Source: Spirochaetota bacterium (GTDB lineage Bacteria; Spirochaetota; UBA4802; JAGODF01). From it: a stretch of DNA of 64,000 nucleotides. The stretch spans positions 258,723 to 322,722 of the forward strand of contig DAIUCD010000001.1 of assembly GCA_036846345.1 (NCBI GenBank). The letters are read 5' to 3'. A model generated the notes under the pieces. It ran no database searches and was not told where the DNA came from. It saw only the letters and a list, made by a program, of their open reading frames with translations. This document shows positions 42,344 to 45,647 of the stretch, in pieces. Position 1 is the stretch's first letter. Each line of letters starts with the position of its first letter. Made by a program: the position numbers and the translations under genes.

Positions 42344-42422
42344 ATGGATTGCATTTTATCCTTGATATTATCGGAATCGATTGGGAAAAAGATAATTTTT
42401 TTTAGCGACATAATATTTTTTA

Positions 42423-42450
42423 TTGACTAGAGACGTTTGTTGCCTATAAT
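42423..42450 (+). promoter_or_regulatory. near-consensus sigma70 promoter (TTGACT-16-TATAAT) for the nrdD operon, giving a ~235-nt leader
   Basis: TTGACT at 42423-42428 and TATAAT at 42445-42450. The nrdD ATG is at 42692. Confidence 0.45.
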
Positions 42451-42691
42451 AAAGCAAAATACCAAAAAGCAAACCCTAGATCTCATACTTGCTGCTCAAC
42501 AGGAATGAAATGGTTTCCTGCACTACTGTTGGGAGAGGAGCAAGCTGTTTTGGAACAGAGTGTATCAGATTGCCTGAATGTGCAGCTTGCCTCATTAAGT
42601 ATGTTATTATACTCGTGAATTCTGCCCGTCAGATCCCCCCTCGCCCGGGAGGAGCTGATGCTTTAATAAAATAACCAATCGGGAGTCCGGC

Positions 42692-44773
42692 ATGGAAGAG
42701 AACAATACGTCCATCAGATACATCCGCAAGCGGGATGGGCGTATCGTACCCTTCAATGAGGAAAAGATTACCGACGCTGTCTTCAAGGCTGCCCGGGCCA
42801 TGGGGGGGAGCGATAGAAATGCAGCGGATGCGGTTACAAAATCCGTTGTAAGCATCCTGGACCTTCTTTACAAAGATGACCGTATTCCCACTGTGGAGAA
42901 TGTTCAGGACCTCGTTGAAAAGATGCTCATTGAGAAAGGGCATGCTAAGGTCGCCAAAGCCTATATCCTTTATCGGGAACAGCATAGAAAGATTCGGGAG
43001 GGAAAGAGTCTTCTTGCTGAGGGTATCAAGCTTGTCGAGGATTATCTTGACCGGTCTGACTGGCGGGTCAATGAAAACAGCAACATGAGCTATTCCCTCC
43101 AGGGCCTCAATAATCACATTGCCTCTGCCGTTACGGCCAAGTACTGGTTGGATCATATCTACCCTCCGGAAATGAGAGATGCTCACAGGAACTGTGATTT
43201 TCATATCCATGACTTGGGTCTTCTCTCCGCGTATTGCGTGGGATGGGACATCAAGGATCTGCTGATACAGGGATTCCGGGGAGTGAGCGGGAAAGTGGAG
43301 AGCCGTCCGGCAAAGCATTTTCGGAGTGCCCTGGGGCAGGTGGTGAATTTTTTCTATACCCTTCAGGGAGAGTCCGCAGGAGCTCAGGCATTTGCCAATT
43401 TCGACACCTATCTGGCACCTTTCATCAAATACGACAATCTCACCTACAGCGAGGTCAAGCAGTGCCTGCAGGAGTTTGTCTTCAACATGAACATCCCCAC
43501 CCGCGTGGGTTTTCAGACTCCCTTTACGAATGTAACCCTGGATATGAAGGTTCCCTCCAATATAGCCGATGATTTTGTGATCATCGGGGGAGAAATACGC
43601 GACAGAAAGTACGGTGATTTCCAGGAGGAGCTTAATATATTCAACAGGGCCTTTGCCGAATGCCTGGTTGAGGGGGATGCCCGCCACCGGATCTTCACTT
43701 TTCCCATACCGACCTACAATATCACCCGGGATTTCGAATGGGACAATCCTGCCCTGGACCGGTTATGGGAGATGACAGCCCGGTACGGAATTCCCTACTT
43801 TGCCAATTTCGTCAATTCCGACATGGATCCTGAGGACGCCCGTTCCATGTGCTGCCGTCTTCGCCTTGACAACCGGGAGCTCAGAAGCCGCGGAGGAGGC
43901 CTTTTTGGCGCCAATCCCTTGACGGGAAGTATCGGAGTCATAACCATCAACATGCCCCGTCTGGCTTACAAGACTCGGGGGAATGAAGCTTCCTTTTTTA
44001 GTGAACTGGATTCCCTCATGGACCTGTCCCGGGATTCCCTGGAGATCAAGCGCAAGGTGCTGGAAAATTTTACCACCAACAATCTCTATCCCTATACAAG
44101 GCATTATCTGAAGGACATCTTTAACCGTACGGGAAAATACTGGGTAAACCATTTCTCAACGATCGGGCTGGTGGGCATGAATGAGGCCTGCCTGAATATA
44201 CTGGGTCAGGATATCTCCACAGAAGAGGGTAAAGAATTTTCAGTGAAGGTCCTCCATCATATGAGAGACCGGATACAGGGATATCAGGAGGAGTCGGGGA
44301 ATCTTTACAACCTTGAGGCCACTCCAGCCGAGGGGGTCAGTTACCGCTTTGCCAAACATGACAGGGAGACATTCCCGGACATCCTTACGGCAGGACAGGT
44401 GGAACCTTATTATACCAACTCCATACATCTGCCGGTGGGTTATTCCGATGATATATTTGATGTCCTGAATCATCAGAATGAGCTGCAGGCCCAGTTTACG
44501 GGAGGGACGGTGGTTCACTGCTTCATCGGGGAGAAGATTGATGATCCTCAGATGGTCAAGAAGCTGGTTCGGAAAATTGCCGAGAACTACGTCATCCCCT
44601 ATTTTACAATCACCCCAACCTTCAGCATATGTCCCGTGCACGGTTACATCCCAGGATCCCACAAATATTGTCCTCATGAACATTCGCCGGAGGAACTGGA
44701 AGCATACGGTATTGAGGTGTCTGATCCTGATGCCGATAATATAAAAGAGAAAGACAAGAAGATGGCCATCTAG
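42692..44773 (+). CDS. nrdD: anaerobic ribonucleoside-triphosphate reductase (class III RNR) catalytic polypeptide, ending before the glycyl-radical loop
   Basis: N-terminal ATP-cone (IRYIRKRDGRIVPFNEEKI), NrdD core and a C-terminal Cys/His metal site (CPVH...CPHEH). Terminates at TAG 44771-44773 with no RVxGY glycyl motif. Confidence 0.9.
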   Translation: MEENNTSIRYIRKRDGRIVPFNEEKITDAVFKAARAMGGSDRNAADAVTKSVVSILDLLYKDDRIPTVENVQDLVEKMLIEKGHAKVAKAYILYREQHRKIREGKSLLAEGIKLVEDYLDRSDWRVNENSNMSYSLQGLNNHIASAVTAKYWLDHIYPPEMRDAHRNCDFHIHDLGLLSAYCVGWDIKDLLIQGFRGVSGKVESRPAKHFRSALGQVVNFFYTLQGESAGAQAFANFDTYLAPFIKYDNLTYSEVKQCLQEFVFNMNIPTRVGFQTPFTNVTLDMKVPSNIADDFVIIGGEIRDRKYGDFQEELNIFNRAFAECLVEGDARHRIFTFPIPTYNITRDFEWDNPALDRLWEMTARYGIPYFANFVNSDMDPEDARSMCCRLRLDNRELRSRGGGLFGANPLTGSIGVITINMPRLAYKTRGNEASFFSELDSLMDLSRDSLEIKRKVLENFTTNNLYPYTRHYLKDIFNRTGKYWVNHFSTIGLVGMNEACLNILGQDISTEEGKEFSVKVLHHMRDRIQGYQEESGNLYNLEATPAEGVSYRFAKHDRETFPDILTAGQVEPYYTNSIHLPVGYSDDIFDVLNHQNELQAQFTGGTVVHCFIGEKIDDPQMVKKLVRKIAENYVIPYFTITPTFSICPVHGYIPGSHKYCPHEHSPEELEAYGIEVSDPDADNIKEKDKKMAI

Positions 44774-44803
44774 CAGATTCTTGAGGGCGCAAAGGAGAAA
44801 AAA

Positions 44804-44974
44804 ATGAATAAAGAAAAGAAGATTCCAGTAGAGGTCTATTCCCGAGTAGTCGGATATTTTCGTCCTGTGAACCAGTGGAACAAGGGCAAAAGAGAAGAGT
44901 TTTACGAGAGAAAAACCTTCAAGCTCGAACCAAAAGAAAAAGCCCCTGTCTATGAATATCAAAGGAATTCATAA
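44804..44974 (+). CDS. 56-aa polypeptide carrying the class III RNR glycyl-radical motif (separate ORF or readthrough extension of nrdD)
   Basis: SRVVGYFRPVNQWNKGKREEFYERKTF is the canonical NrdD C-terminal glycyl-radical loop. It has its own AAAGGAG RBS at 44791-44798. It is in the same frame as nrdD, 30 nt past the TAG. Confidence 0.6.
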   Translation: MNKEKKIPVEVYSRVVGYFRPVNQWNKGKREEFYERKTFKLEPKEKAPVYEYQRNS

Positions 44975-45647
44975 AACCTCGCTGATTGATTTTCCCGGCA
45001 AGATAAGCTCTGTTCTTTTTTCCGGTGGCTGCAATCTCAAGTGCCGGTACTGCCATAACCCCGATCTCGTATGCAGAAATTGCGAGCTGAAGGGCTTTTC
45101 CAATGAAGAAGCGATTGGGATTATCCGTAAACGCAAAGGGCTGATAGACGGTGTTTCCCTTTCGGGGGGTGAACCTACCCTTTCCCGGAATCTGGAGAGC
45201 TTCATCCGCTCCGTAAAGCAGATGTCGCTTTCAGTCAAGATTGATACCAACGGCCTGAACCCTTCAGTGATTGAGAATCTTCTCAGTCATGACCTGCTGG
45301 ATTATGTGGCTGTGGACGTGAAAACCTCTCCTGAAAAATATGAACTCCTTACGGAGAGACCGGTCGATTTCTCCCTCATCAAGAGAACTCTCAGCATGCT
45401 GAAGGAGTCCGGAGTCGACTATGAAATCAGGACGACCTGCATACCCTATTACGTTACTCTGGAGGATTTCCAGAGCATTCGTCGGGAGATAGGTTTTGTG
45501 AGAAGGTATTATCTCCAGCAGTTTGTGAACAGGGTCACGATTGACGAAGCCCTCAAGGATTGTGAGCCGTATTCCCTCAAAGTGCTGGAGGGTTTCAAAC
45601 GTTATGTGCTGGGTTTTTCCGAATTGTGCGAGATACGGGGTATCTAA
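44952..45647 (+). CDS. nrdG: anaerobic ribonucleotide reductase activating protein (radical SAM)
   Basis: Radical-SAM cluster motif GGCNLKCRYCHNP and NrdG-like size (231 aa). The start codon lies inside the glycyl-radical ORF. Confidence 0.85.
   Translation: MNIKGIHKTSLIDFPGKISSVLFSGGCNLKCRYCHNPDLVCRNCELKGFSNEEAIGIIRKRKGLIDGVSLSGGEPTLSRNLESFIRSVKQMSLSVKIDTNGLNPSVIENLLSHDLLDYVAVDVKTSPEKYELLTERPVDFSLIKRTLSMLKESGVDYEIRTTCIPYYVTLEDFQSIRREIGFVRRYYLQQFVNRVTIDEALKDCEPYSLKVLEGFKRYVLGFSELCEIRGI

What the first reader, a model, noticed from the sequence alone, without database searches (positions are those of the whole stretch)
42692..44974. Class III RNR with the glycyl-radical loop separated from the catalytic body by an in-frame TAG
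The 693-aa NrdD ORF has the ATP-cone, catalytic barrel and a Cys/His metal site. It ends at TAG 44771-44773 without the hallmark RVxGY glycyl-radical motif. Thirty nt downstream, in exactly the same reading frame, a 56-codon ORF (44804-44974) with its own AAAGGAG RBS encodes a textbook NrdD C-terminal loop (SRVVGYFRPVNQWNKGKREEFYERKTF). The sequence between them is a Lys/Glu-rich low-complexity linker. Reading through the single TAG would give a 760-aa contiguous NrdD. The nrdG start codon (44952) lies inside the small ORF, consistent with translational coupling. Possible explanations:
- a genuinely two-piece NrdD whose radical domain is supplied in trans, analogous to the GrcA/YfiD spare part of pyruvate formate-lyase, not known to me for class III RNR;
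- programmed UAG readthrough or recoding;
- a sequencing error or a recent nonsense mutation.
Any of the first three would be biologically notable for an essential anaerobic enzyme.
Basis: seen in the sequence. Interest (0 to 1): 0.7.

Follow-up and report, generated by a model that had tools for sequence, protein, structure and literature searches.

The report
Two-gene anaerobic ribonucleotide reductase
The enzyme that makes DNA building blocks without oxygen is here encoded as two genes, a large catalytic body and a separate 56-residue protein carrying the radical-bearing glycine; this split is conserved across many bacterial phyla and I found no description of it in the literature I could search.

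Summary
The 693-aa NrdD ORF (42692-44773) ends at TAG without a glycyl-radical loop. Thirty nt downstream, in frame, a 56-aa ORF (44804-44974) with its own AAGGAG/ATG encodes that loop, and nrdG (44952-45647) overlaps its end.

It is not a sequencing error, a pseudogene or a recoding site:
- The same stop occurs in three independent assemblies.
- All 120 closest homologues lack the loop.
- 74 of the 75 species-representative genomes that could be scored have the same two-gene layout.
- The large-ORF stop varies (TAA 46, TGA 19, TAG 10), the frame offset is near-uniform (0/+1/+2 = 20/31/24), and the gap runs from -20 to +171 nt.

The in-frame TAG in this window is therefore coincidence.

The small ORF is under strong purifying selection and nearly always has its own SD and ATG. 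The split occurs in Spirochaetota, Desulfuromonadales (including cultured Malonomonas rubra), Omnitrophota, Planctomycetes-labelled MAGs, Aquificota, Deferribacteres, WOR-3 and TA06, and in intein-bearing and phage-like relatives.

Best reading: an obligate two-subunit class III RNR whose glycyl radical sits on a separately translated mini-subunit. It resembles GrcA/YfiD in function but is not homologous to it. Eight full-text searches found no description, and a 2026 review says spare-part proteins are known only for formate lyases.

The parts
42407..42427 (+). Conserved upstream element GACATAATATTTTTTATTGAC, abutting the -35 hexamer; a candidate operator
   Evidence: It is unique in the window, with 0 matches expected by chance. 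The 14-mer GACATAATATTTTT occurs once, on the + strand, about 160-290 nt upstream of nrdD in 29 Spirochaetota species-representative loci.
42423..42450 (+). Promoter-like site TTGACT-16-TATAAT for the nrdD-large / nrdD-small / nrdG operon
   Evidence: It matches 11 of 12 consensus positions. No convincing terminator-like site lies between the three ORFs; the two hits are internal to the large ORF and fewer than expected by chance. This is a consensus match only.
42692..44773 (+). nrdD large subunit (693 aa): ATP-cone (aa 10-99), catalytic barrel (aa 128-664), finger-loop M386-C387-C388-R389 (nt 43847-43858), and Cys/His site C647, H650, C660, H664 (nt 44630-44683). It has no glycyl-radical loop.
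   Evidence: Pfam NRDD E = 1e-183 and ATP-cone E = 1e-23. NF006126 scores 1043 bits. The named residues are invariant in 38 homologues. An AF2 model of the large subunit hits only solved NrdD structures at the top of the Foldseek list.
44684..44770 (+). Lineage-specific acidic C-terminal tail of the large subunit (SPEELEAYGIEVSDPDADNIKEKDKKMAI). L669 and G673 are invariant; the rest is variable.
   Evidence: Net charge from C660 to the C-terminus is -6. The AF2 model gives pLDDT below 50 for residues 678-693.
44771..44773 (+). TAG: the genuine stop codon of the large-subunit gene
   Evidence: It is present in three independent assemblies. Orthologous loci use TAA 46, TGA 19 and TAG 10. TAG ends 11 of 50 long ORFs in the window.
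44792..44797 (+). Shine-Dalgarno AAGGAG of the small-subunit gene, within the 30-nt spacer 44774-44803
   Evidence: A GGAG-type motif lies within about 15 nt upstream of the ATG of the small ORF in nearly all of the 75 split loci.
44804..44974 (+). nrdD small subunit (56 aa), the glycyl-radical loop protein. Core is PVEVYSRVVGYFRPVNQWNKGKREEF; the predicted radical site is G17 (nt 44852-44854). The C-terminal YEYQRNS overlaps nrdG.
   Evidence: Pfam NRDD profile positions 531-562, E = 1e-9. There are 442 database homologues, and the best 120 are all 53-89 aa. Variability by codon position is 0.03, 0.003 and 0.40 across 30 species.
44952..45647 (+). nrdG, the radical-SAM activase (231 aa). Its start overlaps the end of the small-subunit gene by 23 nt.
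   Evidence: TIGR02495 NrdG2 E = 2e-57, plus Radical_SAM. The overlap of -23 or -38 nt recurs in most Spirochaetota loci.

Best explanation
[quoted passage not shown] The large gene makes the ATP-cone, the ten-stranded barrel with the Cys-Cys finger loop, and a Cys/His metal knuckle. A separately initiated 56-aa gene makes the beta-hairpin that carries the radical glycine (G17, RVVGY) plus the short C-terminal helix.

Shown here: the two genes are separate translation units, both are under selection, and the arrangement is conserved across phyla together with nrdG.

Inferred: the small protein docks its Gly loop into the barrel of the large subunit, as the covalently attached C-terminal domain does in T4, T. 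maritima and P. copri NrdD. NrdG, which is translationally coupled to the small gene, abstracts the Gly hydrogen either on the free mini-subunit or on the complex. The radical is then passed to the finger-loop cysteine for ribonucleotide reduction.

The lineage-specific extensions probably hold the pieces together. These are an acidic tail on the large subunit with a basic N-terminus on the small one, or heptad-like helical tails on both.

A plausible benefit, not tested, concerns oxygen damage. Oxygen cleaves the chain at the radical glycine, so damage would destroy only a cheap, replaceable 6.5-kDa piece. That would be the GrcA/YfiD logic made constitutive.
For: 1. Complementary homology. 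The large ORF covers NRDD profile 1-528 and the small ORF 531-562. In NF006126 they cover 3-653 and 651-683.

2. Not an artefact. The identical 693-aa product and TAG occur in three assemblies. All 120 nearest homologues (74-81% identity, 674-713 aa) lack the Gly motif and end at the same place.

3. Separate genes. Of 80 GTDB species-representative loci, 74 are split, 1 is contiguous and 5 cannot be scored. With the window that makes 75 split loci. Stops are TAA 46, TGA 19 and TAG 10. Frame offsets are 20, 31 and 24. Gaps run from -20 to +171 nt, including ATGA overlaps in Omnitrophota. Nearly every small ORF has an ATG preceded by a GGAG-type SD.

4. Selection. The 20-codon core is identical in 30 species while third codon positions vary; minor-allele fractions are 0.03, 0.003 and 0.40. 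There is exactly one Gly loop per locus.

5. Breadth. At least 57 of the 150 best 50%-identity cluster representatives end just after the metal knuckle without a Gly loop. Of four such contexts checked, three carry an adjacent 45-67-aa Gly-loop ORF; two of the three were flagged PF13597 confidently and one weakly (L084, L087, L089).

6. Co-variation of docking tails. In Aquificota the large tail has charge -7 to -9 and the small N-terminus +2 to +4. L060 and L089 have heptad-like tails on both pieces.

7. nrdG is adjacent to, or overlaps, the small gene in most loci.
Against: There is no biochemical or proteomic evidence. Complex formation, the location of the radical and enzyme activity are all inferred.

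The model of the large subunit alone is mediocre (pLDDT 69), and its metal-site and tail regions have low confidence.

In this species the two ORFs are in frame with no further stop between them, so low-level read-through producing some 760-aa fusion cannot be excluded.

I could not check whether these genomes also carry a second, contiguous nrdD.

One phage-like relative (L085/L086) has a truncated NrdD with no small ORF within 2.5 kb.
Confidence: 0.85

Rival explanations
1. Programmed UAG read-through or recoding (for example pyrrolysine or a suppressor tRNA) joins the two ORFs into one 760-aa NrdD.
For: In this window the ORFs are in frame, 30 nt apart, with no other stop between them. The base after TAG is C. 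From general knowledge, not tested here, that is not the strongest termination context.
Against: Among 75 split loci the stop is TAA in 46, TGA in 19 and TAG in only 10. The small ORF is out of frame in 55 of 75 loci, and some pairs overlap. The small ORF has its own SD and ATG. ARAGORN found no tRNA or pylT in the window. TAG terminates 11 of 50 long ORFs here. An in-frame arrangement in 20 of 75 loci is no more than the one-third expected by chance.
Confidence: 0.04
2. The TAG is a sequencing or assembly error, or a recent nonsense mutation, making nrdD a pseudogene.
For: Coverage of the contigs carrying it is low, about 3.6-5.6x according to the contig names.
Against: The same stop occurs in three separate assemblies. 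The whole clade has the split, down to 60% identity and across at least eight phylum-level labels. Both pieces are under purifying selection. The small ORF has a conserved SD and ATG.
Confidence: 0.01
3. The small ORF is a GrcA-like spare part for a different, full-length NrdD encoded elsewhere, and the large ORF here is a radical-less paralogue with another role.
For: I could not inspect whole genomes for a second nrdD. GrcA sets a precedent for free-standing Gly-radical proteins (PMC8683613).
Against: The large ORF keeps the invariant finger-loop MCCR, the ATP-cone and the barrel motifs of an active RNR. The large gene, small gene and nrdG are syntenic and often translationally coupled in dozens of species. 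There is exactly one Gly loop per locus. The small ORF matches the missing C-terminus of this same NrdD subfamily (NF006126 positions 651-683).
Confidence: 0.04
4. The two halves are rejoined after translation (split-intein trans-splicing) or during translation (ribosomal frameshift or hop).
For: Relatives of this NrdD family are rich in inteins (Pfam Intein_splicing in L084 and L087).
Against: The extensions are far too short for split-intein halves: about 29 aa on the large piece and 8-11 aa on the small piece. Neither piece gives an intein Pfam hit. The inteins in relatives sit elsewhere, for example at the finger loop. Gaps of up to 171 nt carrying stops in the small ORF's frame argue against hopping.
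Confidence: 0.01

Closest known systems
Canonical single-chain class III RNR NrdD with activase NrdG (T4 1H78/1H79, T. maritima 4COI/4U3E, P. copri 8P23, S. thermophilus 9D3X)
   Same: It shares the ATP-cone, the barrel, the finger-loop cysteines, a metal knuckle just before the Gly loop, an RVxGY radical motif, and an adjacent radical-SAM activase. Sequence and fold matches are unambiguous.
   Different: In every solved and described NrdD the Gly loop is the covalent C-terminus. Here the chain is cut between the second metal knuckle and the Gly hairpin, and the hairpin is a separate gene product. The second knuckle is C-x3-H (CPHEH) rather than CPxC.
GrcA/YfiD (and T4 Y06I), the autonomous glycyl radical cofactor of pyruvate formate-lyase
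   Same: It is a small free-standing protein carrying a glycyl-radical loop. It is presumably activated by the cognate radical-SAM activase and inserted in trans into a barrel that lacks a functional Gly loop.
   Different: GrcA is homologous to the PFL C-terminus (Pfam Gly_radical), not to NrdD. It is a back-up for a PFL that has its own Gly domain and acts after O2 cleavage. Here the partner never has a Gly loop, so the small protein is obligate. It is also half the size of GrcA (56 vs 127 aa). The 2026 review states that spare-part proteins are known only for formate lyases (PMC13450708).
Split class II RNR NrdJa/NrdJb of Pseudomonas aeruginosa (Crona et al. 2015, as cited in PMC9669993)
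   Same: It is a ribonucleotide reductase catalytic protein encoded as two adjacent genes that must assemble.
   Different: It belongs to a different RNR class (B12-dependent), has a different cut site, and has no protein radical on the small piece.
Phage nrdD genes interrupted by group I introns, inteins or homing endonucleases (T4, Lactococcus phage 949, Aeromonas phiAS4; PMC3653736)
   Same: nrdD appears as more than one ORF.
   Different: Those interruptions are caused by mobile elements, are sporadic, lie at other positions, and are mostly repaired by splicing. Here there is a 30-nt spacer with an SD, no mobile element, and conservation across phyla.

Membership tests
Class III RNR catalytic subunit NrdD (PF13597 / TIGR02487 / NF006126) | Homologous ATP-cone and catalytic barrel | tested here: met
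   NRDD E = 1e-183, ATP-cone E = 1e-23 and NF006126 at 1043 bits against a cut-off of 548. Foldseek's top hits are all solved NrdD structures.
Class III RNR catalytic subunit NrdD (PF13597 / TIGR02487 / NF006126) | Finger-loop cysteine(s) that receive the radical (MCCR/MGCR motif) | tested here: met
   M386-C387-C388-R389 is invariant in 38 homologues. This is the double-cysteine type described in PMC9669993.
Class III RNR catalytic subunit NrdD (PF13597 / TIGR02487 / NF006126) | Glycyl-radical motif RVxGY at the C-terminus of the same polypeptide | tested here: not met
   It is absent from the 693-aa ORF and from all 120 nearest homologues. It is present instead on the adjacent 56-aa ORF.
Class III RNR catalytic subunit NrdD (PF13597 / TIGR02487 / NF006126) | Zn ribbon (four Cys in T4) preceding the Gly loop | tested here: inconclusive
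   C647-x2-H650 ... C660-x3-H664 is invariant in the Spirochaetota clade, so a Cys2His2-type site is plausible. Metal binding cannot be tested here, and this region has low confidence in the AF2 model.
Class III RNR catalytic subunit NrdD (PF13597 / TIGR02487 / NF006126) | Cognate radical-SAM activase NrdG encoded alongside | tested here: met
   TIGR02495 NrdG2 E = 2e-57 at 44952-45647. The gene is adjacent or overlapping in most split loci.
GrcA/YfiD autonomous glycyl radical cofactor | Small free-standing protein carrying a glycyl-radical loop | tested here: met
   The 56-aa ORF has its own SD and ATG and carries RVVGY. Its homologues are 53-89 aa and stand alone.
GrcA/YfiD autonomous glycyl radical cofactor | Homology to the PFL C-terminal glycine-radical domain (Pfam Gly_radical) | tested here: not met
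   The only Pfam hit at E <= 0.01 is NRDD; there is no Gly_radical hit.
GrcA/YfiD autonomous glycyl radical cofactor | The partner enzyme has its own Gly domain, and the small protein replaces it after O2 cleavage | tested here: not met
   The partner (large ORF) lacks any Gly loop, both here and across the clade.
Programmed stop-codon read-through or recoding (Pyl/Sec/suppression) | A conserved in-frame stop of one type at the junction | tested here: not met
   Stops are TAA 46, TGA 19 and TAG 10. Frame offsets 0, +1 and +2 occur in 20, 31 and 24 loci.
Programmed stop-codon read-through or recoding (Pyl/Sec/suppression) | Recoding machinery, or TAG not used as an ordinary stop | tested here: not met
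   No tRNA was found in the window. TAG ends 11 of 50 long ORFs. The rest of the genome could not be searched.
Mobile-element-split nrdD (intron, intein or HEG) | An intervening intron, intein or endonuclease at the break | tested here: not met
   The spacer is 30 nt. Rfam finds nothing in the window, and neither piece has an intein domain.
Pseudogene | Lack of conservation or selection on the fragments | tested here: not met
   Both pieces are conserved across phyla, with third-position-only variation in the core of the small ORF.

The most novel reading that the evidence does not exclude
The 56-aa protein is a diffusible, exchangeable 'radical cartridge'. NrdG activates it off-enzyme, which would explain why the small gene and nrdG are translationally coupled. 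It then plugs into the NrdD barrel, and after oxygen cleavage at the glycine it is simply replaced. That would make class III RNR repairable and its activity tunable through the supply of the small subunit. Recurrent fission at the same linker in many lineages would then be adaptive rather than neutral. This would be the first obligate trans-acting glycyl-radical subunit in any glycyl radical enzyme.
Probability: 0.35. Interest if true: 0.9.

Novelty: new variant of a known kind. Interest (0 to 1): 0.8.

Why it matters
Glycyl radical enzymes are described as carrying the radical glycine on the C-terminus of the catalytic chain. The only known free-standing radical domain is GrcA/YfiD, an emergency spare part for pyruvate formate-lyase.

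Whether other glycyl radical enzymes have such proteins was raised as an open possibility in 2021 (PMC8683613). A 2026 review still says they are known only for formate lyases (PMC13450708).

A widespread class III RNR whose radical loop is always a separate 45-70-aa protein would matter in four ways:
1. It answers that question for an essential enzyme.
2. It gives a natural minimal substrate for studying how NrdG recognises and activates the Gly loop, and how the loop enters and leaves the barrel.
3. It suggests a cheap repair route after oxygen exposure.
4. It warns that automated annotation and length-filtered RNR phylogenies will miss the radical subunit, or will take the large subunit for a complete enzyme. 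One such study kept only sequences of 400-1100 residues (PMC9531940).

Cultured Malonomonas rubra DSM 5091 has the system, so it can be tested experimentally.

Tried and rejected
- **Modelling the complex.** No heteromer model was obtained.
- **AF2 of the large subunit alone.** The alignment had 38 sequences and gave only pLDDT 69. The finger loop, the metal site and the tail were poorly defined. The model confirmed the NrdD fold and nothing more.
- **Rfam.** The whole window at gathering thresholds and the nrdD leader at E <= 5 gave nothing, so no known riboswitch or intron is present.
- **Read-through or recoding, sequencing error or pseudogene, split intein or frameshift.** All were considered and rejected on the comparative statistics.
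- **Viral scan.** A viral-contig scan with a phage-like truncated NrdD (P0418) returned only contiguous NrdDs fused to thioredoxin/glutaredoxin-like domains, not split ones.
- **Shared metal site.** I considered a metal site shared between the subunits, with a Cys supplied by the small protein. It is possible outside Spirochaetota, where the small proteins keep a Cys 2-7 residues before the Y/F-S-R strand. The Spirochaetota small proteins mostly lack it, and many contiguous relatives have CPxC as well as that Cys. It remains speculation.
- **Phylogeny.** A rough neighbour-joining tree with Fitch parsimony suggests many split/contiguous transitions (about 20). Deep branches are unreliable, so I do not claim a number of origins.
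- **Literature.** Eight full-text searches found no description of a split NrdD with a separate Gly-loop subunit. Subscription-only papers and RNRdb could not be searched.
Full report
**1. Observation.**
- A 693-aa ORF (42692-44773) ends at TAG 44771-44773.
- After a 30-nt spacer containing AAGGAG (44792-44797), an ATG at 44804 opens a 56-aa ORF (to 44974) in the same frame.
- nrdG starts at 44952, inside the small ORF.

The two ORFs are complementary pieces of one family model. In Pfam NRDD the large ORF covers profile positions 1-528 of 562 and the small ORF 531-562. In NCBIfam NF006126 they cover 3-653 and 651-683 of 684. The third ORF is an NrdG2-type activase (TIGR02495, E = 2e-57). The small ORF holds the only R[VI]xG[YFW] glycyl-radical-type motif in the 64-kb window.

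**2. Not an error or a recent mutation.** The identical 693-aa product, stop and small ORF occur on contigs from three separate assemblies. The 120 best database homologues of the large ORF are 74-81% identical, 674-713 aa long, and labelled Spirochaetota wherever a source name is given. All of them lack the Gly motif and end at the same point, a few to about 30 residues after an invariant CPxxH. The 56-aa ORF has 442 database homologues, and the best 120 are all free-standing proteins of 53-89 aa.

**3. Not read-through or recoding.** A scan of one genome per GTDB species returned 80 loci. I located the end of the barrel ORF and the Gly loop in each.
- 74 loci are split like the window, 1 is contiguous (L052), and 5 cannot be scored because of a contig end or masked bases.
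- Across the 75 split loci, window included, the large-ORF stop is TAA 46, TGA 19 and TAG 10.
- The small ORF lies in frame 0, +1 or +2 relative to the large ORF in 20, 31 and 24 loci.
- The gap ranges from -20 nt to +171 nt. Omnitrophota mostly show an ATGA overlap.
- Almost every small ORF starts with ATG preceded by a GGAG-type Shine-Dalgarno.

Within the window TAG is an ordinary stop, ending 11 of 50 long ORFs, and no tRNA gene is present. The in-frame TAG here is therefore the coincidence expected in about one-third of loci. Low-level read-through in this one species cannot be formally excluded, but nothing requires it.

**4. The small ORF is a real, selected gene.** Across 30 species sharing the core EVYSRVVGYFRPVNQWN[KR]GK, the mean minor-allele fraction is 0.03 at first codon positions, 0.003 at second and 0.40 at third. 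There is exactly one Gly loop per locus. In Spirochaetota the conserved C-terminal YEY[QK]xN of the small protein coincides with the overlapping, conserved start of nrdG (MNIKGI...). The overlap is typically 23 or 38 nt, which is consistent with translational coupling of the radical-carrying protein to its activase.

**5. Distribution.** By record titles, the split loci come from:
- uncultured Spirochaetota and Leptospirales;
- Desulfuromonadales, including cultured Malonomonas rubra DSM 5091 (L064), Desulfuromonas, Trichloromonas and Geoalkalibacter;
- Omnitrophota, including Ca. Omnitrophus magneticus;
- Planctomycetia-labelled MAGs, Aquificota/Aquificales, Deferribacteres, WOR-3 and TA06.

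In an exhaustive HMMER search of 1.84 billion cluster representatives, at least 57 of the best 150 end shortly after the metal knuckle without a Gly loop, and at least 52 are contiguous; the rest are fragments or did not match my motif patterns. Many of these are 1000-1800 aa because of inteins.

I checked four such distant cases in their genomic context.
- L084: a 1753-aa NrdD with at least two inteins on a 1.65-Mb bacterial contig, followed by a 60-aa NRDD-Pfam ORF.
- L087: gene order nrdR, nrdD, a 45-aa Gly-loop ORF, nrdG.
- L089: a phage-like contig carrying an overlapping 67-aa Gly-loop ORF.
- L085/L086: a phage-like contig where a terminator-like hairpin follows the truncated NrdD and no small ORF lies within 2.5 kb.

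A rough neighbour-joining tree places the window in a large clade that is uniformly split except for L052 and P0359. Split and contiguous states are interspersed elsewhere, so fission, re-fusion or both happened repeatedly. I do not claim a count.

**6. Anatomy of the cut.** Compared with solved NrdDs (P. copri 8P23, S. thermophilus 9D3X, T. maritima 4COI/4U3E, T4 1H78), the break lies between the second metal knuckle and the beta-hairpin that carries the radical glycine.
- The large subunit keeps the ATP-cone, the barrel, the finger-loop M386-C387-C388-R389, and a Cys/His site that is invariant in 38 homologues (C647, H650, C660, H664). The canonical CPxC has become CPxxH.
- The small subunit is essentially the last ~35 residues of a canonical NrdD plus short lineage-specific extensions.

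Those extensions co-vary between the two pieces.
- Spirochaetota, WOR-3 and TA06: an acidic tail on the large subunit (-1 to -10) and a mostly mildly basic N-terminus on the small one.
- Aquificota and Deferribacteres: a long, very acidic tail (-7 to -9) with a basic N-terminus (+2 to +4).
- L060 and L089: heptad-like helical segments on both pieces.
- Desulfuromonadales: both extensions are short.

Outside Spirochaetota the small protein keeps a Cys 2-7 residues before the Y/F-S-R strand. Its role is unknown.

**7. Mechanism.** The following steps are inferred.
- The small protein inserts its Gly loop into the barrel, as the covalent glycyl-radical domain does in other NrdDs. The extensions act as tethers.
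- NrdG generates the radical on G17.
- The radical passes to the finger-loop cysteine.

In all glycyl radical enzymes the radical domain must leave the barrel to reach the activase. O2 cleaves the chain at the radical glycine (background in PMC13450708 and PMC8683613). A detachable mini-subunit could make both activation and replacement after damage easier. That advantage is a hypothesis, and neutral fission at a permissive linker is the alternative.

**8. Comparison with what is known.**
- The system is a class III RNR by every homology test, but it fails the family's architectural feature of a C-terminal Gly loop on the catalytic chain.
- It works like GrcA/YfiD but is not a member of that family. 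It has no Gly_radical Pfam hit, and its partner has no Gly domain of its own.
- Known split nrdD genes in phages are interrupted by introns, inteins or endonucleases at other sites (PMC3653736).
- The known split RNR of P. aeruginosa is class II (cited in PMC9669993).
[quoted passage not shown] The eLife one filtered sequences to 400-1100 residues, which would hide the small subunit (PMC9531940, PMC9669993).
- Andorfer et al. 2021 say only the PFL spare parts are validated and speculate that other glycyl radical enzymes may have them.
- Eight full-text searches found no description of this architecture. I could not search RNRdb or subscription journals.

**9. Verdict.** The finding is much broader than one locus: a phylogenetically widespread, apparently undescribed two-subunit form of the class III RNR catalytic component. 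Confidence that it is a genuine two-gene, obligately trans system is about 0.85. The functional rationale is open.

Noticed in passing
window 42407-42427 (also about 160-290 nt upstream of nrdD in L004-L008, L012, L014, L015, L018, L021-L029, L031, L033, L035-L042, L044, L062): An exact 14-mer, GACATAATATTTTT, abuts the -35 hexamer of the nrdD promoter-like site. It is conserved upstream of nrdD in 29 Spirochaetota species whose NrdD proteins are only 72-81% identical to the window's. It is unique in the window. It may be a repressor operator, perhaps NrdR-like, though it is not an obvious 16-bp NrdR palindrome.
   Followed up: partly
window 42451-42691: A leader of about 235 nt lies between the promoter-like site and the nrdD ATG. 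It has no Rfam match even at E <= 5. Apart from the upstream element, the leader aligns poorly among relatives.
   Followed up: partly
P0241-P0390; L084 2501-7762; L087 2501-5110: Many relatives of this NrdD subfamily carry one to several inteins and reach 1000-1880 aa. A recurrent break in the match falls at the finger-loop Cys-Cys (query position about 386-388).
   Followed up: no
L091, L092, L094 (IMG/VR contigs); P0276, P0284, P0302, P0307, P0329, P0335: These are contiguous NrdDs with a thioredoxin/glutaredoxin-like domain (TCPNCK motif) fused after the Gly loop. The fusion suggests a built-in reductant.
   Followed up: no
L085 and L086, 2501-5704 and downstream: A phage-like contig carries a truncated, intein-bearing NrdD ending ...CPKCDAELLAKKANK. 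A terminator-like hairpin follows it, and there is no Gly-loop ORF within 2.5 kb. The radical subunit may be encoded elsewhere or supplied by the host.
   Followed up: partly
L060 (Spirochaetia MAG) and L089/L090 (phage-like contigs), junction of the large and small ORFs: In these split variants the CPxC knuckle is retained. Both the tail of the large subunit and the N-terminus of the small subunit are Lys/Glu/Leu-rich and heptad-like, resembling a natural zipper that holds the two pieces together.
   Followed up: no
Small ORFs of L047, L050, L054, L063-L083 (Aquificota, Deferribacteres, Desulfuromonadales, Omnitrophota): Outside Spirochaetota the small subunit keeps a conserved Cys 2-7 residues before the Y/F-S-R strand (VPCEVYSR, KCxVEVFSR, KCDAKTEVYSR). 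Desulfuromonadales also have RVCGF in place of RVVGY. This could be an extra metal ligand or a redox cysteine.
   Followed up: no
window 42629-43687 (-) and 44240-44962 (-): Long antisense ORFs of 352 and 240 aa overlap nrdD. They are most likely non-coding shadows of the strongly conserved sense frame.
   Followed up: no
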